Source: Paraspadella gotoi
Taxonomy: Eukaryota; Animalia; Chaetognatha
DNA: 64,000 nucleotides
Direction: 5' to 3'
Assembly (NCBI GenBank): GCA_051294375.1
Contig: CM119264.1
Location: 23,910,002 to 23,974,001 of the forward strand
Every line of letters begins with the position of its first letter. Position 1 is the stretch's first letter. The translations under genes and the position numbers were made by a program. Of the stretch, positions 16,448 to 63,712 are shown one piece after another. The notes beneath the pieces are model-generated. The model saw nothing but the letters and a program-made list of their open reading frames with translations. It was not told the origin of the DNA and did not search any database.

Positions 16448-17702
16448 CTTTCACGCCTTTCTTATCCCCTCACCGATCCCTAAGCAACTCTTACCCCCCC
16501 CCACAATTGACCCTCGCTCCCTGCACATCACGTGACCCTCCTCCAGGCGACGAGTCTCGCGCGCGAGAGCTTTCTCGGATCGTTCGTTCCATTTCCCCGC
16601 GATTGTTTCACCATGAACGCCTTTCATCGCCACCATGAAAATCACTTCACGCCAAAAAAATCGGTTTTCGCGTCGCCGGCGCCAAACCGGCGCCAAACCG
16701 GCGCCAAACCGACGCCGGTGAGGATGCCGGGCGCCACCCGCCGATTTCCATCGATTGCCATCGGCAGCGTCGTGGATTGCCATCGGCGGCCAACGACGTT
16801 TTCGCCCTAATCGACCGGAAGTATAAAATATGAGAGACGATGAGCGAGAGAGAAAAGGATGAAAAAAAAAAAAGCTTGATCGCCCGATAGCCTTGATTGC
16901 TTCCTCGCTTGGTCGCCTGATTGACTGACCAAGAGATTCCCCGGAGAATTCAATGTTCGATCGATTACCGATAACGGTCGGTATGTGAGAAAGCTTTGAT
17001 AGTATAAATTAAAATAATAGAATGCTGCTGATGACGGTTGATGATGGAAAGCTTTCCAAGTCCAAAGTTGATGATAGGTGATAGCCGAATAACAGATAAC
17101 ACATTGACGAAGTAAAACTTATAACGAAAGAAAGATCAAAATCAGAATGATTCAGTGTGTCAAACCGCTTTCCCTGACGCCTGCAGTCCAACCGTTTAAC
17201 CATAAAAAATATTTAATAGATACTTACGAAAAAGTTTTATTTAATTTCGACAACGATTTGTTTTTATTTAAAAAACGTACATGTTTCGGCTTTTCATACA
17301 AGCCTTCATCAGCGCCAAAAGTGAATGTAAAATTTACAGATTTTTTTGTGTAAAGGAAGAGTGAGAGATAAACAGAGAGAGAGAGAGATATTAGATATTA
17401 TTATTATATTACGAAGATGTCAACGAAGAAAATAGGCCTACTTCCTTCGTAGATGAAATAAAATAGTAAAGTGTCGCCGGTGTCGGTGACATAAGAAGAG
17501 CGATGACAAAAAAATATGGAAAGCCATGGCCTAAAAAAAAAATGGCCGACGATGGCAAATAAAATGGCGGGAGATGAAAGCGAGGGATTTCCAAGGGATT
17601 TCTGAGAATCGACATTTTCTACTCGAGACGCAAAGTCGACGCCAAGAGTCAGCGTCTCTTTCGTTTCGGTTTCCCCAATTGTCCCTCTGCCCTTCTCTTT
17701 GT

Positions 17703-48872: not shown

Positions 48873-51800
48873 TTACTTGGACTGTCTCCGTTTAACTTCG
48901 CTCATCTCCATTTCGTTCCCGCTCTCAGTGGAGGGCGCGATCTTGGAACCGGCGTCGAAAGGCGCTTCCTCCTCTTCGTCCACGTAGCTGAGTTGGGGGG
49001 GGGAAGGAGTTGGTTGATTGATTGGGTAAATGATTGGAGAAATGATTGAAGACTTTTGGAAAGTGACGAGCATGAAAAAAAATATCGTAATTTTTTTTTA
49101 AATTTTTCAATTTATGCTTCTGAAATATGTTTAGAGAAAGGAAAGAGAAAAAAAACGATTGCAAAAAATAATGTCTTGCGTCGGTGATAAAAATTTGTAA
49201 ACTTTGGATATAGAATGAAAAACGGCCATATCCAAAGTGTTTCACGCTTCTAAAATAAATTATATCTTTGCATTTAAATTGCACGTCAACATTACAACCT
49301 CTTTTGTCGGATCTACCCCCGTCACTCACTTGTATCTCGCGGCTAGGAATAGAAAGAGGAGAAAGGCGAGAAAGCAGAGTCCAGCGAAGAGAAAGAGTTC
49401 GGCTGAGTGAGACAGAGTCGCGTCACCGGAAGTCTGCGACGCCGCTACCACCAGATCGATGGCGTTGCCGAGGAAGGTGGTGAACAACCATCCGGCCTGG
49501 GAAGGTGGGGGGAAAGGGAAAGGAAGGTGGGGTGAGCAATCGAATCTGACGAAGAGTCTTGGTTACGAGATATGACAGATGTATTCGTACGTATTCTCTT
49601 CCCCTTATTCCAGAATTTTAATGAGAAAACTTCCTAAGCATCATAGATACTATCCACATTAAATCTCCAGGAGATTCCATCGACGAGGTAGACATCATCT
49701 CGACCATTTCCGAAAGTGTTCACCTGCATGACGGATTTCATAGAGTCCGGTCCCTGCGAGTAGGCGAACGACAATCCTGTGATCGACACCATAATTTCTG
49801 CCATCGTCATTACAACGTATTGAGGAACCTGGGGAAGTTAAGATTAAAAAAGCTGGAGAAAAAAAAAGAAACCGAAAAAGTAAGAAAAAGAAAAAAAAAG
49901 AGAGAGAGAGCGTGAAATTGGATTCTTTCCTATCGAAACAAAAACTTGGCACGAGTAGTTATAAATTTCCCACTTCTTTTCTTAGGCATTATTAAACGGT
50001 TACTCAGAATCACATATACGCCTTTAACAAAATTGAATTTGAATTGCTATAGTACTTAAACTGAAATACATTCAATGCCTGATTAATGTAAGAACCTTTA
50101 AAAAAATTTCGTGGGCAAACCTGCCAAAGCATGGAGAATTCATTCTCCTTCGTATTGGTGTACACAGTGTAATAAAGACCCGCGCCGTCGTGAAAAACCA
50201 CTGTGTAGGTGCCGCCATTTTTAAAGTCATTTTTAGGACTGCAGATTTCGGTTCCGTTGTCGTTGATTTTGAATTTATAAAAACCTTAAAGTTTAAAAAT
50301 GACAATTGATAAAGTGTAAGACATCCTTTCATTAAATTGATAAATGAGTGAGTTAATCAAACGCAATTTGCTTTGCAATAGATTATGGTTGACTAAAATC
50401 CACCAACCATTCAACAGCGGCCATTAGTGCCGGAGGGAAGTCATTCGCCTCCCAACCCAAAGGTCCGGGTTCTAGCCGGTGGCCGGCTAGCAGTTAAGAG
50501 GGACGGGGCGCTTAACCCGCCTGTAACACTGTTACAGTAAGGCGTAGTGAAAGTTAAATACGAAAATTCTAAAAGTCAATTATGAACAACATACCATCAG
50601 TGAATATTAATTTGTAAAAAAAATAATTTTATGTTTTTTAATTTTCGCAGTAGGCCATATTTATATATAGTACTATCCTTATAAAATCGAAAATTTCAAA
50701 ATAGGCTTTTCTTAATTTTGATTACAGATTTGAATTCCTCGTCAAAAGTTGATAAAGAAAATATAAATCATTTTTAAAAATTTTTTCATTAAGTGGGTTA
50801 AAATTAAAAAAACTATTTAATATATAAAAAGTTAATTTTCAGCTTAAAATATAGTTTTTTTCTAATTTTTGACCCACTTAATGAAGGAATTTTTCAAAAA
50901 GAGTTATATTTCTTTTTATCAACTTTTTATAACGAATCCAAATCTGCAAAAAAATCTTAGAAAAAACTGTTTTGAAATTTTAACATTTATTGGTTTAGTA
51001 CTAGTATAAATATGGCCTACTGCGTAAATTGGAAAATTTTATTATAAATTGTTTTATTACATAAATGTTCATTAGTATAATGTTGTTCGTTCCTCACTTT
51101 TAGAATTTTAAATTAAAGTTAAATTGAGAAATTTTACTACGCCTTACTGTTACAGCCTATCCGAAGCTCAGGGACTGCTTATATTGAACGGTTCTGTCAT
51201 TAACACAATTTCTGTCTCTTCAAGATGCTCGCTACAATTTCTTTCAGAAAAGTTAAGCAGAAATTTTTTACATCTATATTTATTCGAATTCTTAAAGAAA
51301 ACAATTTCATTTTAAATATCAGTTTGCGGGTAAAAAAAAAAAAAAAAAAAAAACTTAGCGATTGTGCAGTTGTTACGTAGTGTAAATTCTCAACTTATAA
51401 AATTTTCTATATGGGATTAGTCACTATTCAATTCATATGAAATTGGTTTAACTAATATAGGATTATCCACTGGATAATATCCAGTCATTCAATAAATAAG
51501 CTATATTGCCCTGTAAATAGTATAATAGTTTAGGCTGTCATTGTAGTCAGTATCTCGTTTTTTTCTTTTTCGGTACGTGAAAGAGCTTCAAAAAACGGTC
51601 AACGCATTCCTACCTATTGTCCGATATCAACAATTCATCACTTGACAATAATGCAAAAAAGTTAAACTCTTTTTTGTGACTCCAGCTGCAAAAACACAGA
51701 GAGAGAGAGAGAGAGAAGTCAGTGGGAGATCCATGGTCAGTAAGGAAGAGGAAAACAAAAGGAGAAGTTACGAAGGAAGGAAGAGAAGGAAGAGGACGGA

Positions 51801-54800
51801 ATCGAGGGTAAGGATTAAAACAAAGAAAAAAAGCCATTGGTGGAAACGAGGCAATGGGAATCGACAAGAGCCAATCCACGTCTCACGGTAACGACGGTGA
51901 AATCGATATCAAATCGAGATCGATTCACTTTCACATTCGATTCCAAACCGATGTCTTTGCGAAACTCTTGACCATTTTTTCTGTCAAATTAAAATTCAAA
52001 CCTCAATCTTCTCCAACTGTCAAACATTCGATTCTACAACGAACTATTAATACCATCTTTTTAAACTACCTTCATTTTAAACAATATCGAACTAAATCCT
52101 CCCCATTTTTAATTAAAAATAAAACCCTCACAGAACCATGGAAGGATCCAAGAATGCTTTTAAATCATCGCTTGTCTTCGGCGGAAATTTATCTTCGGTT
52201 TGGTCGGCGTCGATGAACGGGTCAATCAACGGGTCCAACGACGGTTCTCCCGCGACTTCCCCAGGCAACAACATCCTCAAACGACATCTCGAAACCTGTC
52301 ATGACTAACGATTCTCTCGTTCCGGAACCGAAAAAACAGCGTGTCTCCGAAGATGATTCCCAAGAATGCGTCGATTCCATCTTAGATCTAAGTTTCCTCA
52401 GCGAATACGAAGAGATAAGTAACGAGAGTCTCGCGGCGCCGGTCACCCAGGCGGCGTCGGTTGTGCAGGCGTCGCCGGTCTCCCAGACTGCGCTCGTCGC
52501 CGAGGCGCCGCGGCTCTCTAATCCTGTTCTTGTCCGGCGGTCGTCTTCAGACACTTTGTCGTCCTCAGTTTCAGAGTCATCACCGACCTTAATGAATCTC
52601 GACACAAAATGCTTCTATCTCCTTGCGTCTTTCGAAGCGCAAATGGTTGCCGCCGTTTCGGCGCCGCCATCGCCGAAGGCAAAGCAGCCGTCTTGCCAGA
52701 AAAATAACGAGAGTCTAGCGGCGCCGGTCGCCCAGACTGCGCTTATCGCCGGGGCCCCGCGGCTCGCTAATCCTGTTTATGTCCGGCGGTCGTCTTCAGA
52801 CACTTTGTCGTCCTCCGTGCCAGAGCCACAATCGGCTTTAACGAACCTAGCGGCGGAAAAGGTCGACATAAAATGCTTCGATCTCCTTGCGTCTTTCGAA
52901 GCGCAAATGGCGGCTGCTGCTTCGGCGCCGACACCGCCGCCTCGCCAGCAAAAGCCGTCACAACGTCGACAGCCACTTCGTCGCCCACAGAAGCAGCAGC
53001 CGTCCTTGCAGCAGCTGAAGCCATCAAAGTCGCAAAAGCAGCAGCAGCCGAGAATGAAGCAGCAGCCTAACGAACTTTCCCTTGATTTTCTTCCGGTGCT
53101 GACGGACGACATCCTCAAAGAAATTAAAGAGATCGAAGCCCTTTGCGAATCCGATTCGTCGGCGGCCAACGACTTCACACGGACCGCCAGCCAGGCTTCT
53201 CTCTTCTCCCAGCCGCTCCCCATGCCGGTTACCCTGCCGGTCACCCACTCATCTCAGGTTCCGGCGCCGAAAAAGGGCGGAACGAAGAAAGCGACGCGGC
53301 AGCCGGTTTTGTCTCTGCCGCAGTTTGTGCTGCGCGAGCAAAACACGATTGTCCCCGCGCGCGCCGCGCCACTTTCTTGGAATGCCAACAATTTCGAAAA
53401 CTTCAACTTTTACAACTGGAACGCTGTTCAAAATTTCGTTGACTCTCCATCGGCTTCAAATATCTCGCCATCGGCGCAGGTTGTGAATTCGCCAGCACCC
53501 TCGGCCTCACTTAACCCCATCTATTTCAATGGCCCCAATTTTTACGGCGCGGGCCCCAACGTCGCCTGTCATAACCACGCCATCTTCGCTCAACGACCGG
53601 GAACTCTTGGACAGGCGATTCCCAGTAATTTCTCTTTCAGCTCCCAAAATTATTAACTCAAGTAGCAACAGATGCAAGCGCAACATCAGGGACAGCAGCT
53701 GCAGTATTGCGAAATGCCGAAGCCACAGCAATAGCTGTAAATGCAATAAATTAACGTCAACTGCAGGAGGGAAGGCAGTCAATTAATTTCAAAAAATACA
53801 ATAGTTCTACTAGGGAGAAACTAACTCAGTAAGGTGGTTAAGAAATTTGAATTAAGCACCTGCTCAAACGAAAATTTAGACATTTTTAAAAAAATTTGAA
53901 TAGACAAATTTTTTTAATATTACTCAATATATTAATTTTTTAATATTTATTTATAAATAGGAAAGGCTAAATTTTTTTTTTGATTTTTTGATTTTTAAGG
54001 TCAGATTCAGGTAGCTTGCAAAAAGTTGTCTACACAAAGTATAAATTATGATTCTTTTTTCAATATTTTGATCATAAGTGTGTGAAAAATATGAAAAACT
54101 ATTTATAATCATCATTTTTCGATAATTTTATTACTTTTTCTTAATTTTGACCAAGAAAACAAATATTTTTGAAAGTTGTAGTTAAATTTTTTTATCATTA
54201 TATAGTAATATTGTAATTTTAATAGCAACAATAAAAGCATTAAAATCGAATTTTTTTTAAAAATTCTTTTTTTACCTAAAAGTAAAGTTTTGAACCCCCG
54301 CCCCTATTGAATTTAATTTCATAGTAGATTTCTAGTTCTACAGAGGCAAAAATCGATTGAACTTTAACGAGAGCACCTCGAATAAATTCTGAAATTGAAA
54401 AATGTGTTTTTGTTATTTAGGTAAAGTTCGAATTAAAGTATTTGAAAGTATTTAAAATACTAAGGCCGCACGATTTAGTTTTCATTCCGGAGGCTTCAAA
54501 CATATTAATTCTAAACGTATTATAATTTGCAGCATTGATCTTATTTTTAGCCTTTCATTCATTGACTGACCATAATTTTATCGTGATAATTTTTTTTTAA
54601 TTTTTTGATACAGTTAATACGTTATATTAATTAAAAATTTTAAAAAAGACGTGAATTCAAAACATGGCTATTGCTTGCTATTACAAGAAGAGAAGAGTTC
54701 AATTTTAAGAAAGATAGAAAAAGTGCGCTTAAAGGCCGTTTTTACGAAAACTAGGACATTAGAAGTAAATGTATAATATAAGGCATTTTGACTCGTCTTT

Positions 54801-57800
54801 CGGCTCACCCGGCTCCAGTTCCAATTTAGTAGTCATGTTGTGGGAATCCGAATTCTTCTCATCCAACTTGACGGCTGTCAGATTAGATCGAGAAGAAAAT
54901 AAACTGGGGGAAAATAATATAAAGTTCTTTTTGCATTTTATGACGAAAAAATTCACAATTGGTGTAAGTTTATGAAGCTTTAACCTTTTTTGAAACAGCC
55001 CATCAGCTGTTAACGTTATTTTTCTACATATAAAAATCAATCTCTCAAACTTTTCGTCGACGCCAAAGGAGCGATTGCCGAGTTGAATACCAAGACAGGG
55101 TTCTCTCGCTACTCATTTCTCAGACAACTGAAACAATCTCCAACGTTATATAACTAATAATTATGTAAAGTATGTATTCCAACTTTTCTCTCCTCCATCT
55201 CACTTGATCCATGTTTTAGCGTCGGGTGGTTTCTCGATCGTCTCCACTATCGTCTTCACCATCAACGTCCCGTCTTCCCTCAACACCACCGCTATCACTC
55301 CTTTCCTGTCATCCACGATCAGAGTTTCGCCGATTTTGTCCCCAGAATTCTTGGCGGCGAACGTGAGATCGAAGTGGGCCCACTCATCCTTGGTCACGGT
55401 GGACCCGTGGGTTTTCACGGTGTGGTTCAGCTCGACGCGGATTCGCTCGCCTTCCATCATCTGGGAGAAAGGAAAAAAAATCGGTCTTATCGTTTGTTAT
55501 AATTGCTTGGTTCTTGTTTGTTCAGTTGTTGGTTTCATTCGTAGTTCCTTCATTATAACAACGGAATGGACTTATAAACGGACTTGGTTGGCCTAGTGAT
55601 GTGATTGCTTGTCTCCTTCACGAATCATCAGAATGCCGACGAATCACAGATCTTACTTCAAACTTAGAATGACCAATGACCGACAGAGGAACCGACGGAG
55701 GGATTGATGGTCAAAATTGCTAAGAGAACTTTAGGCATTCACCTCAACATCCAAACTCAAGAAAGAACCCTTCAAATAATTATTGAACTGTTTAATATTT
55801 CATCACCTTTGTCTTAACCTTTGTCATCGGGTCATCGTTACCCATGTCATCACCCTAATCATTGTCCGTCATTAATAAACTATTGTAAGCCAAATACTTT
55901 GCCACTTATTATTTACCCTCGTTATTTGGCTAAACGTCAACGATAATAATCTCTTTTCAAAGAATTAATTGATAAATAACCAACCAAATCCCGTGGTTCT
56001 CACCGGTCCGTTCGTAACTCACTTTTACCTGATACGCGGGAACCGTGTAAGGTTTTCCAAGCATTCGAACGTCAAGCGGCTCGTCGAGATGGTTGATGAC
56101 AGTGATGAAGCCGTGACCGGTCATCGGAGGATGGAGATCTTGGTCTTCTAGTTGGAGTTCGAGGAAACCTTGAGAGTGTGAGATAGAGAAGCTAAAAGAT
56201 GGAAAATATACGTACAGTATAGAGAAGTAAATTATAAATTGCATTACTAAAAATAAATCTGGATACTTCGCTATCCAGGTCGGTTAACTAAGGGTAAAGC
56301 GAGGGATTGCTACTCCCAAAGCAGTTTACGGCCGAACTCGCGTTAGTCTAACCCCCCGCCCCGTACCAAGTGGTCGTTTACACGGCTTTGCACAAAGAGC
56401 CCCTACGACAAGACGGGAAGTACAAAGCTTGTTAACGGAATAAACCAGGGCTATGACCGCAGAGTAGAGAAACTAACTAAAATGATTAAATCACTAAAAT
56501 ATCACTTTCAGCTATACCAGAAGTTTTTCTCGCCTAAATCCAATAGATATTCAGACGTCACAACAAAATAAAAACTTCAAAAATCGACGGATCAAAATTA
56601 ACCCAACCGGAAATGACGAAGGATCCCGAAGTCAGGAGGAGGCCGATGCCGAGACGCTGCAACGGACGCATGCGCAGACCGAATTTGTTGCAAAGAGGAT
56701 AGATTCCTTGATCGAAGATCGGGATGAAGAGAAGGATCAAAACGGCGTTGAGAACCTAGGGGAGAGAGAATAAATCAAATCGATATATGCGAATAAATTA
56801 TTTGGCAATATGGTTCGATCGCGCCCCATTTCATAGTATATTTTAATTTATTTATAAAAATTAAAGTTTAGATCAATAAAAAGGGTAAAAGATCAGGGTT
56901 TAAAGTTAAAAATAAAAAAAAGGTTAAAGGCTTAAAATTATGTTATTTTCCTTTTTTTTTTCGTTATGTATTGATATTTTAAAAAAAGAATTAAATAAAT
57001 TTAATTACCAAATTCAAACTTTTTTTAAAGCTTAAAATTAAATTAAATAATTTTTATAAAATTAGGAAAAAAAATAGAAATGGGGCGCTTTCGAAAGGAT
57101 GGACCGATTAACAGACCTGCATCTGATCCGGTTTAATAAAATTCATTCCATCGAGTCTTTGCGCTTGGAGGGTCCAACGTGTTCCCTGTCAGAAGATTTT
57201 AAAAAAAGAATAACAGTCAACGTCGCTCACTATAACTATAAGCAACATATCTCGGCCATAAAACCGAAGGTTAAGAGAGCTAATGGAATTTGCATCAAAC
57301 CAGACAAAAAGGCACGATCGATTAAAATCCGGTACAAATAATCCAAATAGAAGGAATGGTAAAAATCATATCGACATGTAAATAGGCTACATAGTAAAAA
57401 TCGTGCATCGGGAGATTGGAGAAAAACCGAATACCAATTCTCCGTGGGTTTTGAAATCTGTTGACCGGCGCAATGGGCAAGGTAAAATGCGACCAAGGCG
57501 TTCCCTCATCGAATACTTTTGAATTTGGCGGGAAAAAAGGTTACGATTCTTCTCCGTATATCTCGACGTTGATTGGTTAAGTCTCGCCAATCCAAGATCT
57601 AAGGTAAGAAATGCTTCCTTTCGCAATACGATATGAGAAGGGTTAGCCGTCTACTTTTCAATATCAATGAACCTACGGTCAACTGGTTTTCTGGAGATTA
57701 CAAGTTGTTAGCAGATAAACAATCTCATGCAGTGTAGTTAAAACGCATTTTTCTCATGATAAGAACCTTAGAGTATCAATAATGTATTGTGTCAATAGTC

Positions 57801-60245
57801 TATATACCTGCTGATCGAAGAGAGCCCAAAATATAACGATGGGAATCAAAACGGTCATGACGTTGAAGACGACTTTGATGTCCGCGATGAGTCGGTTCGA
57901 GTATTTGTCATCAGCCCAATCCAGCCAATGGCGGCGCCACTGGTCGGCGCCGGAGCGAAATTTCCGCTTGAGGGCGTAACAGACGCATCGAACGACGTCT
58001 GTATGAATCAATGTCGAAGAGACGAAAAAATTATTAATTTATTATAAATTATAAATAATAAAATGGGAGTCCTTGGGCTAAAATCAGGATGAAGGACTAC
58101 TTGCAGATTAGCCGGCCGGTACCACTTAAAAGATAAGCGGCAACTGGGCTAAAAACCCAGGGCCTTTTGGCTTGGAGGCGGATGACTTGCCTCCGAGTCA
58201 AACGACTGACGGACCATGTCAATCAATTTTAAGCCAAAACCTATTACGTGACACGTCAATTGTGACGCTGAAGAGACAGATGTAAGCACTAAGTAGTCCC
58301 TGAGTTTCGCATCAGGCTTTGACACCATTTTACAGGCGCGTGACGCGCCCCGTCCCTCTTAAGTGCTTGGCGGCTACCGAGCTAGAACCCTTTAGGTTGG
58401 GAGGCGAATGACTTGCTTCCTGCACCAAAGGCCGCTGAACGGTTCCACCATTATGGATCATTTGTCATAATCCCCGTGCTGACCTCCGAAAATATTTCCT
58501 TCTGGTGGATTTTTTTTGTACTTCGTGATGACGTCACCGAGTATAAAGAAACCGACGGCGATGATCATCAAAATGGCGGGGACGCCGAACGCTAGAGGGT
58601 AGCACGTGATCTCGCCGAAACAGCCAACGTCGGCTGAAGTAATCAAGTAGTAAATTAAGTAGTTAATAAATTAAAGATAAATTAATTTAAAAAAATCGGT
58701 CAATAAATCAATCGCCAAGTAAATCAATTAATAAATAAAATATCAATTAATCAATCAAGAAACCGGCTAATAAATTTATAAATCAATATATTAATTAATC
58801 AACCACCTCTTAGTATGGGAGTGAGCAGCATTGAGACGACCGACCCGGCGTTGATAGAGAAATAAAACATGGAGAAAAAAGTCCCGATTTTAGATTCGTT
58901 GCCGTCGGAAAATTGATCGCCGCCGAACGCAGCGACGCAAGGCTTGATGCCGCCTTAAAAACAACAACGATTCTATAATTTTAAAAATATACGTTATACA
59001 GTATTATGGCGCTGATTAAAGATCACCGGGCCGTGTAGACAAAGCGTTGATTTCTTTTTCAAAGGATTCTCTCGCTCAAACTTACCATAACTTGCAACCC
59101 AATTTCAGGTCATTCTGTAACGGGCATTGCACAGTTTCCGCCTCATAAATATATCGATCACTCAGTGGCTAATTGAGTAAAGCCATCGGCTCATAACTGG
59201 GAGGGATCCCAACTAGGTACTTATCCTACGGAAAGCGTGAGGAGTGCCGTAAATCGACTTGGTGGCGTGAAAAAAAAATCCATAAAGCCTGCTTCCACGT
59301 CCAGGACCCGTCATACAATACTACCAGCATTCCATTCCCTTTTGACTCCTTACCGGTTCCGATCCCGATGAGCAAGAGTCCCACCATGGGCCCGTACCAC
59401 ATGTGAGGTCCAGCGCCGAATTGGGGAATGGCGGTGAGCGACATGACTAGATTTCCGATCGAGTAGACGATCGAGATTAGCATAATCGTTTTGAATTTCC
59501 CCCAGTAGCTGTCGGCGATGAGGGCACCTTCGGAGGTGGGGTAGGGAAAAGGGGGTAGAGGGGGGGGAGAAAGCAGGGTCGAGGTGGCATTAACAGGGTA
59601 GAGGTGTGGAGAGAATAAAAATCAAAGAGGGTAAGATTAAGAAGCTTCTGCTCCGTCGGTTTTAAAAACCTTATCCCCACGCATCATACTTAAAAAGTAG
59701 AAATGCATGAAAAAATCTGACCTAGCAAAGGCGTTCCGTAGCAGACCATGTTAAAGCCGTGCGCGAGGGCGACGGCCGTGTTTGGGGACATGTAAAGATA
59801 GTTCTGCGATTAGGATGCGAAAAAAAAATAGTATCGATATAAAACAATAAGATGTATGGTTACTTCAAATAATAAGAAAATAAAATAATAATAATCAATA
59901 CGAGACTAGTCAACTTTTGAACGTGCAACAGTAACCTACAGTAAAATTCATCGAATAGGTACTATATGACTTTAAAAAAAACAAACTCTAAAACTAAGTA
60001 CCAACTGATTCGCACGTAACACGCCCCCCCCCCAATCGACTGAAACATGGTTTCACTCACAGTGAGATAAATGATCAAAATCGCCTTCATCCCGTAAAAG
60101 GAGAATCGCTCGCAGAATTCATTGCCGATGATGAAGAAGACGGCGTTGGGAAAACCAAACAGCTGAATTTTGGGGGTTGATTGATTTGATGGATTTGATT
60201 GATTTGATTGATTGATTGATTGATTAAAGTAAAACTTACCCCCAT
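48873..60245 (-). CDS. SLC15A1-like: SLC15/PTR2 (POT family) proton-coupled oligopeptide transporter, PEPT1/PEPT2-like; complete, 16 coding exons, 703 aa
   Basis: Exons (minus): 60245-60240, 60162-60061, 59803-59722, 59527-59354, 58953-58807, 58633-58484, 57998-57808, 57185-57117, 56755-56608, 56168-56029, 55460-55204, 54903-54809, 50284-50121, 49828-49724, 49496-49330, 48987-48873. All introns GT-AG, phases consistent, total 2112 nt. Motifs: [11 protein letters not shown] (ExxER), [69 protein letters not shown]...AE...FAYSQGP.SMKS; large extracellular domain as in animal PEPT1/2. A1 vs A2 orthology cannot be decided by eye. Confidence 0.96.
50415..50537 (+). mobile_element. tRNA-derived SINE family 1 copy, interrupted by the foldback element (continues ~51156-51168)
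   Basis: cagcggccattagtgccggagggaagtcattcgcctcccaacccaaaggtccgggttctagcc with A/B-box-like motifs; homologs at ~23597, ~58330 (minus), ~58100 (minus). Confidence 0.75.
50538..51146. mobile_element. 609-bp foldback (palindromic) non-autonomous DNA transposon with 9-bp TSD, Mutator-like
   Basis: Ends TAAGGCGTAGT...ACTACGCCTTA; arms are imperfect reverse complements to the centre near 50830 (cgcagtaggccatatttata / tataaatatggcctactgcg; tcattaagtgggt / acccacttaatga); CTGTTACAG at 50529-50537 and 51147-51155. Confidence 0.9.
52138..53749 (+). pseudogene. Intronless S/P/Q-rich ORF (451 aa, 52301-53656) nested antisense in intron 12 of the SLC15 gene; probable frameshifted 5' part and stop-interrupted Q-rich 3' part
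   Basis: Non-microsatellite 1356-nt ORF with an internal ~285-nt duplication (starting 52421 and 52706) and a PKKQR NLS-like motif. An upstream ATG at 52138 after an acceptor-like cacag runs in another frame to TAA near 52306; past the stop the frame reads TAA CTC AAG TAG CAA CAG ATG CAA...CAG CAA TAG CTG TAA ATG CAA TAA. Confidence 0.55.
56277..56470 (+). mobile_element. Degenerate tRNA-Ser(GCT)-like head with structured tail (SINE-like) in SLC15 intron 9
   Basis: GGTAAAGCGAGGGA-TTGCTAC-TCCC resembles a tRNA-Ser D-loop and anticodon arm; no intact T-arm; nested stems CCCGT/ACGGG, GTCGT/ACGAC downstream. Single copy in the window. Confidence 0.4.
56814..57095. mobile_element. MITE-like element with ~19-bp terminal inverted repeats in SLC15 intron 8
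   Basis: TTCGATCGCGCCCCATTTC at 56814 versus GAAATGGGGCGCTTTCGAA ending 57095 (17/19), very AT-rich interior; no clear TSD. Confidence 0.6.
58100..58210 (-). mobile_element. More diverged SINE family 1 copy
   Basis: Reverse complement ggaggcaagtcatccgcctccaagccaaaaggccctgggtttttagccc. Confidence 0.6.
58330..58440 (-). mobile_element. tRNA-derived SINE family 1 copy in SLC15 intron 6
   Basis: Reverse complement cagcggcctttggtgcaggaagcaagtcattcgcctcccaacctaaagggttctagc...ttaagagggacggggcgc...cgcctgtaa matches the 50415 copy. Confidence 0.78.
59158..59312 (+). mobile_element. Diverged, truncated copy of the tRNA-Met-headed element in SLC15 intron 4
   Basis: gtggctaattgagtaaagccatcggctcataac...gcgtgaggagtgccgtaa...ggcgtgaaaa...aagcctgcttccacgtccaggacccgt aligns with 61561-61713. 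Confidence 0.8.
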
Positions 60246-60646
60246 AGTCTCCGATTTTCAGATTCGGAGAAAAAAAATGGTTTTGTTTTATTATATTTCA
60301 GTTTTTAAGTAAACGCTCGTATTGTTTTCGTGAAAGTTCGTCTTATCTCATTTTTTAAAAATTTTTATTGATGTCAGGTGATTAACTTTTAGAAAAAAAA
60401 TTCATTAAAAAAATGTTATCTATTACAGGATTAAAAATGTGGGAGTGAATGGTTGTATGGAATACGGGGTCGGTTTTTTTAAATTTTTCACAAATGGGAA
60501 AACATATTTTTATTGAAAAGAAAGTAAATTAAAAACTATTTGAAAAATTGTACTGAATTTTGCACCTAAGTATTTTTACTCCTAATCTTATCACGATTTG
60601 ATTTGTCAGAGATCGTCCCTTTATTTTTTCCGTTTCTTTAAAGTCG

Positions 60647-61322: not shown

Positions 61323-63712
61323 TCATTGGACGTCAACAAGTGGATCGTCATCATTGTCGTTTCTTACTTCGTCGGCCTCTGATTGGTCGAAATTCGGTTC
61401 AAGGTTTGGTTCCCGATTCTCAACGTACCTGGATTGGGAACAAATTCATAAATATTATGAATTTATATGACAACTTATTCAAATCACAAATATTACATAC
61501 TTGTAGTCGGGCATAGCAAAGTTCACCCCGCCTCTAAGCATGACACCTTCAGTCTGACCCGGTGGCCTCATTGAGTAAAGCCATCAGCTCATGACCACTA
61601 GGTACGGGTTCAATCCCAACCCGGTACCTACCCTGCGGGAAGTGTGAGGACGGCCGTAAGCCGCCCTGGGGGCGTGGAAAACCCTCAAGCCTGGTTCCAA
61701 GCCCAGGACCCGTTCCATAGCTGCTAGAGGGGGTTAAGAAGTTACGGATAGTCATCTTCAGCCCACTTAGCGCCTTATCCACACTGGTGAGCCCATCCTG
61801 TCGAGCGTTTCCAACCTTCTGATTCCAGGCCCATGGACGTGCTGAAGATTGCTCCCCTCCCTCCACTGGAAGCAGTGCAGGGTGGGTTACAATCTGGGGG
61901 CATGTAGTCGGGCATAGCAAGTTCACCCCGCCTCTAAGCATGACACTTCAGTCCTGACCCGGTGGCTCATTGAGTAAAGCCATCAGCTCATGACCACTAG
62001 GTACCGGTTTCAATCCCAACCCGGTACCTACCCTGCGGGAAGTGGTAGGACGGCCGTAAGCCGCCTTGGGGGCGTGGAAAACCCTCAAGCCTGGTTCCAA
62101 GCCCAGGACCCGTCTTCATAGCTGCTAGAGGGGTTAAAGAAGTTACGGAAATAGTCAAATCCTTCGCCCACTTAGCGCCTTATCCACATACTAATAAATA
62201 TTATAAATAACTAACTAAACTTAGGATAACTTGTTCGCCAGTTTCGAAAAATAAGATGTGCTGATGAAGACTTGAATTAAGGTCGAACCACGTTCACTCT
62301 CTCAAAATAAATCGTTGAAAAATATTTCAAACTTTTTCTCATTGTTGAAAAATTTATAACTTAACACAAACCTTAACCATTCAACAATTGACAATAACTA
62401 TCTCATCAATCGATCGATCAATTCGCCTGTATCTCATGGCGATGGCGACGAAGACTGCGGTGACGACGAAGACGACTCCAGCGAAGAAGAACATCTCGAT
62501 CCAGTTGCGTTTGAAGGCGTCGGAGACCAAAATAATCACGTCAACGAGATTCCCGAAAAATATGGTCAACAACCAGGAAGCCTTATAAGGTATTGAACCT
62601 CCTATAAACGCCTGCTTAATGCGTTAAATATACCATATATTTTTAGTTAAATAAATATTATTCACTATTATTATTCGATTTTCACTAATATATAATATTA
62701 TTAACTAATATAACTGATAATATTCAGTCATACTGGTTGGCATTTTTTTCAACCTGCACGATAGACTTCATCGAGTTTGGCGCCTGGGAATAGGCGAAGG
62801 ACAAAGCGGAAATGGCCAATAGGATTTCCCCCATCACGAAAATTACAGTTTGAGGTAACTGAGAAAAAAAAGTTGTATTCATTTACATTTATTTTCAATT
62901 GAGATCCATTTGACGACTTAACTAGACAAACACAAATACAACAATGTTATTTTTAAATTAGTAAATTTTTGCGTAATTTCCTGTTATTAAATTTTTAAGG
63001 TGGCGATCATCATCACCATCATCATTTTTTTACTCATCCAGTTCCAGACTCCAGCCACGGTAATCTCACAGACCTGCCAGAAAATGTTGACACGAAAATG
63101 GTCGGTGGTCTCCACCAAACTTGGTGTGGCTCGTCCGCCTTCGCCTTCGACGACCGTCAAGGCGTAGACGCCTCCGTTGACGAGTTCCAACTCGTCGTCG
63201 ACGTCGTCTTCGATCTTCAAAGAATATCGATCTGGATGGGAAGGTTGAAAGTGATGGAGAAACGGACGGACAAACGGGCAATTAGATGGACAGGCGGATA
63301 TTCTGATGGACAAACGCAAACAGATGGACTAACAGACAGAGACTAGCAGAGAAGCCATTTTACATGACAGACAGATGAAGAGAGACCAATATTCTGACAG
63401 GCAGACAGACACAGAAAGATATATTGAAACGGATAAATAAACTGGCAGACAGAAACGCATAAAGACAGACGGTCGGGTCTTTCCAAATAGAAAAAAACTG
63501 TTAGACAGAAAAACAGTAGGCAAGATATGGATCAATATCTAGAGCCTTCGCTCAATACAGAAAGACAGATAGACGGACGAAAGGACAGACCCGGATCGAT
63601 GGTGAAGACGTTTCTCTCTAGACTGGAGTTGATCTTCAAAGGCTCCGCCCCGAGTTTGTCGTCGTCGACGATGAGGATTTTGTGTCGAAGGGATTTCGAG
63701 GGGGAGATCACG
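61323..63712 (-). CDS. SLC15A1-like: Second SLC15/PEPT-like oligopeptide transporter (tandem paralog); last 5 exons, 5' part lies beyond the window
   Basis: Exons (minus): 63712-63591, 63231-63074, 62858-62754, 62581-62427, 61428-61323. Translation includes NGGVYALTV, NIFWQLPQTVIFVMGEILLAISALSFAYSQAPNSMKSIVQASWLLTIFFGNLVD, EMFFFAG, MRYRYVE; intron positions and phases match the last introns of the neighbouring paralog. The last intron needs a GC donor. Confidence 0.93.
61502..62188 (+). mobile_element. Tandem 1.7-mer of a 401-bp tRNA-Met-headed structured element with target-site duplication
   Basis: tgtagtcgggcatagcaa starts at 61502 and again at 61903; similarity continues to 62188. ACATACT at 61495-61501 and 62186-62192. 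tRNA-like part from ~61556: D-arm GGCT/AGCC (clean in copy 2), loop CTCATGA, T-arm GGGTTCAATCCC. Confidence 0.8.

What the first reader, a model, noticed from the sequence alone, without database searches (positions are those of the whole stretch)
61502..62188. TSD-flanked, circularly permuted 1.7-mer of a tRNA-headed 401-bp unit: candidate retrozyme-like mobile RNA
Seen: the GC-rich insert starts ~54 nt upstream of its own tRNA-Met-like head with sequence belonging to the 3' end of the unit, runs one full 401-bp unit, and stops part way through the next. ACATACT flanks both sides (the ACA overlaps element sequence at the right junction). The unit has A/B-box-like motifs, several stems and no TTTT terminator on the plus strand; a diverged relative lies at 59158-59312, so the family is dispersed. 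Known: ordinary SINE copies begin at the tRNA head, whereas animal non-LTR retrozymes and the Schistosoma SM-alpha and newt satellite-2 repeats are ribozyme-bearing tandem units transcribed as multimers. Inference: the template was a multimeric or circular Pol III RNA copied by a LINE RT.
Basis: partly seen in the sequence, partly recalled or inferred. Interest (0 to 1): 0.85.

Follow-up and report, generated by a model that had tools for sequence, protein, structure and literature searches.

The report
Twister-ribozyme mini LTR retrotransposon in animal
This is a small, protein-free jumping element with two terminal repeats, each holding a tRNA-like segment (likely a promoter) followed by a twister-type RNA fold predicted to cut itself, so it would likely spread through a 400-base RNA circle, as plant retrozymes are proposed to do with a different ribozyme.

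Summary
The repeat is real, but it is not a permuted multimer. It is a 687-bp non-coding LTR element (TRIM). It has two TG...CA repeats (61502-61783, 61903-62188), a 119-bp interior with PBS-like and PPT-like ends, and a 4-bp duplication TACT; the extra ACA is the LTR end. In six public runs the largest listed class of loose ends sits at the LTR 3' end, so the termini are fixed. A tRNA-like head inside the LTR matches Helenus TRIMs (Kojima 2024). It scores below Rfam's threshold (16.8 vs 37.6 bits), and LTR2 as assembled lacks the catalytic G. Cleavage in both LTRs would release a 400-nt unit, as in plant LTR retrozymes. Cutting, circles and transcription are untested. The twister lead came from earlier notes: this scan has reported the same design on other DNA of this genome, with 413-423-nt units. 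My literature searches did not find it described.

The parts
61498..61501 (.). Left copy of the 4-bp target-site duplication (TACT)
61502..61783 (+). 5' LTR, 282 bp, TG...CA
   Evidence: family contigs leave the element at 61783
61557..61628 (+). tRNA-like segment in the 5' LTR (box A-like TGGCY at 61563, box B GGTTC at 61607); likely Pol III promoter
   Evidence: motifs; not called at default ARAGORN settings, only at a relaxed score
61635..61713 (+). Type-P5 twister-like fold: P5 5 bp, P2 3 bp with one bulge, T2 2 bp, P3 7 of 8 pairs, P4 5 bp, T1 3 bp; predicted cut between 61657 and 61658
   Evidence: pair table; partial Rfam RF02684 match, 16.8 bits, below the 37.6 threshold
61651..61656 (+). 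Six-base palindrome in place of stem P1 (8 bases with its neighbours)
61784..61902 (+). 119-bp non-coding interior
   Evidence: bridged to LTR sequence in contigs (X3 records 4 and 5, X9 record 30; X2 record 8, X6 record 24)
61785..61802 (+). PBS-like tract starting with TGG one base after the LTR; primer tRNA not assigned
   Evidence: no variant row shown at 61784-61799
61896..61902 (+). Short G-run before the 3' LTR, PPT-like (weak)
   Evidence: about 40-70% of depth has one more G (table 4)
61903..62188 (+). 3' LTR, 286 bp, TG...CA
61957..62028 (+). tRNA-like segment in the 3' LTR
62035..62113 (+). Second twister-like fold; as assembled it lacks the general-base G and one P2 pair; predicted cut between 62057 and 62058
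   Evidence: Rfam 15.5 bits; most read depth at these positions carries the intact motif
61658..62057 (+). Predicted cut-to-cut unit RNA, 400 nt
   Evidence: inferred from the motif positions
62189..62192 (.). Right copy of the target-site duplication (TACT)
59116..59317 (+). Diverged relative, likely a decayed solo LTR (TGTA...TACA, flanking 4-mers match at 3 of 4) with tRNA-like head and a damaged twister-like fold; right end tentative

Best explanation
The insert is a non-coding miniature LTR retrotransposon (two TG...CA repeats, a short interior, a 4-bp duplication) whose LTRs each carry a tRNA-like segment that is likely a Pol III promoter and a twister-type fold predicted to self-cleave, so it likely spreads like an LTR retrozyme through a 400-nt RNA that would circularise. 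SHOWN: the LTR anatomy, fixed family ends, promoter-box motifs and the twister-compatible pairings in LTR1. INFERRED, step by step: (1) Pol III starts at the tRNA-like head of LTR1 and reads through LTR2, since the first T4 is at 62333. (2) The twisters cut at U^A 61657/8 and 62057/8. The palindromic P1 would let the two copies form a strand-swapped pair in which each active site is built from both LTRs; monomer cutting is also possible, because P1 is dispensable in other twisters. (3) The 400-nt product has no terminal repeat, so it would need to be ligated into a circle to serve as template. (4) A tRNA-primed RT and an integrase of an autonomous LTR element, likely Gypsy, copy more than one turn of the circle and insert LTR-interior-LTR or solo-LTR copies with 4-bp TSDs.
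For: LTR anatomy. Fixed 3' end: contigs leaving at 61783 into mixed AT-rich DNA number 77/46/10/18 in X3/X4/X8/X9 and 126/95/99/30 in X2/X4/X6/X9. This is the largest loose-end class shown in each run of both calls; 805 and 814 rows were not shown. Fixed 5' end: 35 and 22 contigs have AT-rich letters before the TGTAG start (X3, X4). Twister: LTR1 has the GAG, UAA and L4 core, and T1, T2, P4, P5 and three P2 pairs all pair. A twister descriptor hits only this place in the 64-kb window and 0 of 20000 shuffles of the unit. A gapped pattern taken from this motif returned 5 metagenome loci, of which 3 are Rfam Twister-P5 above threshold (50.6, 50.0, 43.0 bits). These share the same L1 and L4 letters, and one has the same short three-base P2 strand. 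Family variants shown fall at 7 of 79 motif positions: 4 in the loop or bulge, and 3 that keep or restore a pair. The next 70 LTR bases vary at 18 positions (3 of 69 vs 18 of 70, Fisher p = 0.0006). The 59-kb relative keeps P2, T1 and 7 of 8 P3 pairs with changed letters. Unconstrained cofolding of the two isolated motifs gives the strand-swapped dimer as the minimum-energy form, -74.2 vs -61.8 kcal/mol for two monomers. Natural twisters tolerate P1 and P2 imperfections (PMC11662667 passages). The circle-template model is the one proposed for plant retrozymes (PMC4918200 passages).
Against: Rfam scores are far below threshold (16.8 and 15.5 vs 37.6), and the 5.5-kb scan missed the motif. The descriptor was relaxed after I saw the sequence and recovers only 2 of the 3 Rfam-positive loci. 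The metagenome pattern fixed the L1 and L4 letters, so their sharing is by construction. 13 of 53 variant rows were hidden; if all lay in the core, the conservation contrast would vanish. LTR2 as assembled lacks the general-base G, so this copy may not release a unit. In the whole predicted transcript the P1-P1 pairs have probability 0.001 and a competing local hairpin over the cut site 0.74-0.98 (pseudoknots not modelled). The modelled nested fold of LTR1 is 13 kcal/mol above its MFE. The 400-nt circle is no more structured than shuffles (z = -0.74), unlike described retrozyme RNAs. The relative's T2, L4 and palindrome are damaged. Box A lacks the YGG typical of Helenus. The primer tRNA is unassigned and the PPT is weak.
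Confidence: 0.6

Rival explanations
1. An ordinary Helenus-type TRIM copied from its uncleaved linear Pol III transcript, which has terminal redundancy. The twister fold is a captured passenger, is mostly inactive in vivo, or only trims or limits transcripts; no circle is involved.
For: All Helenus anatomy is present (PMC10886601). The unit is not unusually structured. A competing hairpin is predicted to mask the cut site. Both other motif copies in the window are damaged as assembled.
Against: Variants shown avoid the catalytic core and keep pairs. The relative keeps P2, P3 and T1 with changed letters. Efficient cutting in both LTRs would remove the terminal redundancy that linear copying needs (PMC4918200).
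Confidence: 0.33
2. One reading: a circularly permuted 1.7-mer of a tRNA-headed SINE or non-LTR retrozyme, copied by a LINE- or Penelope-type RT, with a 7-bp TSD.
For: ACATACT flanks both sides, there is a 401-bp periodicity, and no internal T4.
Against: TG...CA ends on both repeats, PBS-like and PPT-like tracts at the inner junctions, fixed family termini, the same TGTA start in the relative, and no hammerhead core inside the insert on either strand. Animal non-LTR retrozymes lack LTRs, PBS and PPT (PMC7761336 passages).
Confidence: 0.03
3. Assembly artefact: a single LTR or unit duplicated by the assembler.
For: LTR1 and LTR2 differ mostly by indels and swapped neighbours. Several of their letters are rare in reads. 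No contig spans this locus.
Against: LTR-interior and interior-LTR junctions occur in contigs of several runs from three coded studies, so the architecture exists in the family whatever this locus holds. The right flank contig matches with no difference up to the LTR end (X3 record 8).
Confidence: 0.04

Closest known systems
Helenus TRIMs (TRIMp3), Kojima 2024, PMC10886601 (main text parts 1-4 and 6 of 6 read; supplement parts 1, 5, 9, 10 of 11 read, plus one motif search)
   Same: Non-coding TRIM under 1 kb, tRNA-like segment with A/B boxes inside each LTR, PBS and PPT between the LTRs, 4-bp TSD as in animal families, solo LTRs.
   Different: Has a twister-like fold behind the tRNA segment; the paper's main text names no ribozyme in Helenus. 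No match to this family among the consensus sequences I read or in the motif search. The PBS is not among those listed in Fig. S2. Box A lacks YGG. Helenus-2_SyJa and Helenus-2_SyUm LTRs show a hammerhead-like core by eye (not folded).
Plant LTR retrozymes, Cervera et al. 2016, PMC4918200 (passages read)
   Same: A self-cleaving motif in each LTR, PBS and PPT, 4-bp TSD, no coding capacity, and a cut-to-cut unit that lacks the R repeat.
   Different: Animal host, twister instead of type III hammerhead, internal tRNA-type promoter, 400-nt unit rather than 600-1000 nt, unit not highly self-paired, and circles not shown.
Type-P5 twister ribozyme (Rfam RF02684)
   Same: Order of elements, GAG, UAA and L4 core, both pseudoknots, P4.
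   Different: P1 hairpin replaced by a 6-base palindrome, three-pair bulged P2, long P3, score below threshold.
Twister T-variants of Schistosoma Perere-3 (PMC8501958, passages) and RTE elements (mentioned in PMC7761336)
   Same: Twister with a weakened P1 tied to a retrotransposon.
   Different: Those sit at the 5' end of autonomous non-LTR elements; here the motif is inside the LTRs of a non-autonomous LTR element.
Animal non-LTR retrozymes (PMC7761336 and bioRxiv 10.64898/2026.07.22.740005, passages)
   Same: Animal, small ribozyme-delimited unit, possible dimeric cleavage.
   Different: They are tandem arrays with type I hammerheads, have no LTR, PBS or PPT, and are linked to Penelope-like elements.

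Membership tests
TRIM / Helenus | Two LTRs with TG...CA ends, total under about 1 kb, no element-encoded protein | tested here: met
   687 bp. Longest ATG ORF 130 aa; the longest stop-to-stop frame in the insert has no Pfam match
TRIM / Helenus | tRNA-derived segment in the LTR with box A (TRGCY, YGG) and box B (GGTTC) | tested here: met
   TGGCY and GGTTC present, YGG absent; not a callable tRNA, as for most Helenus
TRIM / Helenus | PBS complementary to a host tRNA 3' end | tested here: inconclusive
   TGG one base after the LTR, no variant row shown; host tRNA set not available; not among Fig. S2 types
TRIM / Helenus | PPT before the 3' LTR | tested here: inconclusive
   Short G5-6 run followed by CA
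TRIM / Helenus | 4-bp TSD (animal families) | tested here: met
   TACT at this copy; 3 of 4 at the relative; other copies' TSDs not seen
TRIMp3 | Transcription by Pol III | not testable with these tools
   Only contigs were available; no run on record as RNA
LTR retrozyme | Type III hammerhead in each LTR | tested here: not met
   No hammerhead core in the insert on either strand
LTR retrozyme | A self-cleaving motif at the same place in both LTRs | tested here: inconclusive
   Twister-like fold intact in LTR1, damaged as assembled in LTR2; activity untested
LTR retrozyme | Unit-length linear and circular RNA in vivo | not testable with these tools
   No raw RNA reads offered
LTR retrozyme | Highly self-paired unit RNA | tested here: not met
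   z = -0.74 against 100 shuffles
Twister-P5 (RF02684) | Rfam gathering score 37.6 | tested here: not met
   16.8 and 15.5 bits
Twister-P5 (RF02684) | Core letters (GAG, UAA, L4) and pseudoknots T1 and T2 | tested here: met
   LTR1; no core variant among the 40 of 53 rows shown
Twister-P5 (RF02684) | Stem P1 as a hairpin | tested here: not met
   Six-base palindrome; can pair only between copies
Non-LTR retrozyme / permuted SINE multimer | Tandem units with variable ends, type I hammerhead, no PBS or PPT | tested here: not met

The most novel reading that the evidence does not exclude
An animal LTR retrozyme of a new build: a Pol III-driven TRIM whose two LTR twisters work only as a strand-swapped pair through a palindromic P1. 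A two-LTR transcript is cut to a 400-nt unit, while solo-LTR transcripts and the finished circle, each with one motif, stay uncut. It would join the Helenus promoter and the retrozyme circle in one element and give a natural dimer-gated twister.
Probability: 0.35. Interest if true: 0.85.

Novelty: new variant of a known kind. Interest (0 to 1): 0.66.

Why it matters
In the passages I read, LTR retrozymes are described mainly from plants, with hammerheads and no promoter of this type. Animal Helenus TRIMs are described without ribozymes, and twisters in transposons are tied to non-LTR elements. An abundant animal TRIM with a tRNA-type promoter and a twister in each LTR would link these. It would give twister a concrete role in LTR retrotransposition. 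It would also make the circle-template model testable in a 687-bp element, with an in vitro cleavage assay as the first step.

Tried and rejected
No genome is held for this window, so copies with both flanks could not be tabulated. The Rfam scan of 58.5-64 kb gave 5 weak matches and no ribozyme. ARAGORN found 0 genes in the window. The hammerhead scan found no core inside the insert. Sequencing runs: no RNA holder listed; X9 is only guessed to be RNA, and all runs are contigs, so no start, end, strand or circle could be read. Summed depth is about tenfold higher on the LTR than on the interior, which would fit many solo LTRs, but the tool says depth is no copy number, so I do not count it. An empty-site joint was not among the 15 joints shown (98 hidden). 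The X3 flank contig begins exactly at 62186, where an empty allele would branch; this is only a hint. The metagenome pattern scan found no family member: 3 of 5 loci are unrelated twisters and 2 (one sequence twice) have no Rfam match. The viral scan found 0. MAFFT did not align the element motifs to the three twisters in register, so I compared them element by element (the 59-kb row was off by one and was redone). A protein search to place the host's clade found nothing; the host is called an animal only from its spliced SLC15-type gene. The idea that the 59-kb relative is the donor SINE was rejected because it starts at the LTR's TGTA. The element's own tRNA-like head does not complement its PBS (longest match 5 nt). 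The look-up of earlier findings by sequence found no look-alike and none nearby.

Full report
Observation. The insert at 61502-62188 is real and GC-rich against its flanks. Its first 282 bp recur at 61903-62188, with 271 of 290 columns identical. Both repeats start TGTAG and end CCACA. After the first comes one base and a TGG tract; before the second stands a G-run. The flanking match ACATACT includes the ACA that also ends repeat 1, so the duplication is the 4-mer TACT. This is LTR-interior-LTR anatomy. The relative at 59 kb aligns from the same TGTA start and can be read as a solo LTR, 59116-59317, with flanking 4-mers matching at 3 of 4; its right end is tentative.

Family ends. No genome was held, so I used public runs. 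Thousands of contigs lie on the element (6858 in X3). The largest loose-end class shown in every run is at 61783, the LTR 3' end, followed by mixed AT-rich DNA: 77/46/10/18 contigs and 126/95/99/30. In X3 and X4, 35 and 22 contigs have AT-rich letters just before the TGTAG start. Most other classes shown continue in element sequence and reflect indel variants; 805 and 814 rows were hidden. Contigs join LTR to interior and interior to LTR in runs of three coded studies, though none spans this locus.

Known family. Kojima 2024 (PMC10886601; main text parts 1-4 and 6 of 6; supplement parts 1, 5, 9, 10 of 11) defines Helenus as TRIMs with a tRNA-like segment in the LTR, PBS and PPT, and 4-bp TSDs in animals. 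This element fits in size and layout. Its head has TGGCY and GGTTC but not YGG and is not a callable tRNA. I saw no matching consensus in the parts read or in a motif search, but I could not align against the set, and unread parts or Repbase may hold a relative.

The twister fold. My reading at that point was plain Helenus. Earlier notes on this genome (unchecked AI notes) reported twister folds in similar LTRs, with 413-423-nt units, so I tested this copy. In LTR1, 61635-61713 follows the type-P5 order: P5 strand, P2 strand, GAGGA, a six-base palindrome in place of P1, UAA, P2 strand, GC, P3, P4 with its eight-base loop, P5 strand. P5 (5 of 5), P2 (3 pairs and a bulge), T2 (2 of 2), P3 (7 of 8), P4 (5 of 5) and T1 (3 of 3) pair. 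Rfam sees only the P4/L4 part, at 16.8 and 15.5 bits against a threshold of 37.6. A descriptor hits this one place in the window and 0 of 20000 shuffles; it was relaxed after I saw the sequence and finds 2 of 3 Rfam-positive controls. A pattern drawn from the motif returned 5 metagenome loci, 3 of them Twister-P5 above threshold, one with the same three-base P2 strand.

Conservation. Among the 40 of 53 variant rows shown, 7 of 79 motif positions vary. Four are the P2 bulge or the P3 loop. The other three keep or restore a pair, and one of them is simply this copy differing from 99% of the depth. None touches GAGGA, the palindrome, UAA, T2, P4 or L4. The next 70 LTR bases vary at 18 positions (p = 0.0006). 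The 13 hidden rows could erase this contrast, and variants are not phased. The 59-kb relative keeps P2, T1 and 7 of 8 P3 pairs with changed letters, but has lost T2, an L4 letter and the palindrome. LTR2 as assembled lacks the general-base G and one P2 pair, whereas most read depth there carries the intact motif. Whether this is an assembly error or a dead copy is open.

Mechanism. The predicted cut sites are 400 nt apart, and the first T4 on the + strand lies beyond the element, so one Pol III transcript would contain both motifs. Plant retrozymes have the same geometry, and because the cut unit has no R repeat a circle is proposed as the RT template (PMC4918200 passages). The two isolated motifs cofold, unconstrained, into a strand-swapped dimer through the palindrome, 12 kcal/mol below two monomers. 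Against this, in the full transcript that pairing has probability 0.001 and a local hairpin covers each cut site, the modelled fold is 13 kcal/mol above the MFE without pseudoknots, and the circle is no more structured than shuffles. P1 is dispensable in other twisters (PMC5408937 passages), and P1 and P2 flaws are tolerated (PMC11662667 passages), so monomer cutting remains possible. My odds: TRIM anatomy about 0.95; a functional twister in the family about 0.75; the circle-based cycle about 0.6; dimer gating about 0.35.

Novelty. Searches for TRIMp3, twister with retrotransposon or retrozyme, twister with LTR, TRIM and tRNA, Helenus with ribozyme, and twister with retrozymes, metazoan and LTR listed no paper whose title or abstract start describes a twister in an LTR element. 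The library lacks most subscription papers, and bioRxiv supplements were not seen. Passages read tie twisters to non-LTR elements (PMC8501958; PMC7761336) and place LTR retrozymes mainly in plants (bioRxiv 10.64898/2026.07.22.740005). I file this as a new variant: Helenus-type by anatomy, working like an LTR retrozyme by inference, and not a member of the hammerhead-defined retrozyme family. The scan has noted the same design several times elsewhere in this genome; those notes gave the lead and are not independent support.

Noticed in passing
window 62258-62303 (+) and 17262-17316 (-): Two related minimal hammerhead-like motifs (CTGATGA core, 5-bp stem II) outside the insert, of the kind I recall from Penelope-like terminal repeats. 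The first lies about 70 bp downstream in the same intron and has a changed letter after GAA that the X3 contig confirms. No Rfam match.
   Followed up: partly
window 61429-62426 (-): The insert lies antisense in what appears to be the last intron of an SLC15A1/2-like peptide transporter gene; an upstream exon matches SLC15A2 at E 6e-7. The intron seems to have a GC donor.
   Followed up: partly
window 49637-60297 (-): A second SLC15/PTR2 gene follows in tandem (4 of 65 frames scanned hit PF00854). The decayed relative at 59116-59317 sits in one of its introns, also antisense.
   Followed up: partly
L002:224-281, L004:701-774, L005:701-755: Three type-P5 twister ribozymes above the Rfam threshold in unrelated metagenome contigs.
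   Followed up: partly
PMC10886601 supplement, Helenus-2_SyJa-LTR and Helenus-2_SyUm-LTR: A hammerhead-like core is visible after the tRNA segment in these wasp consensus sequences; the paper's main text does not mention it. Lead from an earlier finding; not folded here.
   Followed up: partly
window 52217-53656 (+): A 479-codon open frame without a Pfam match, inside the span of the second transporter gene on the other strand.
   Followed up: no
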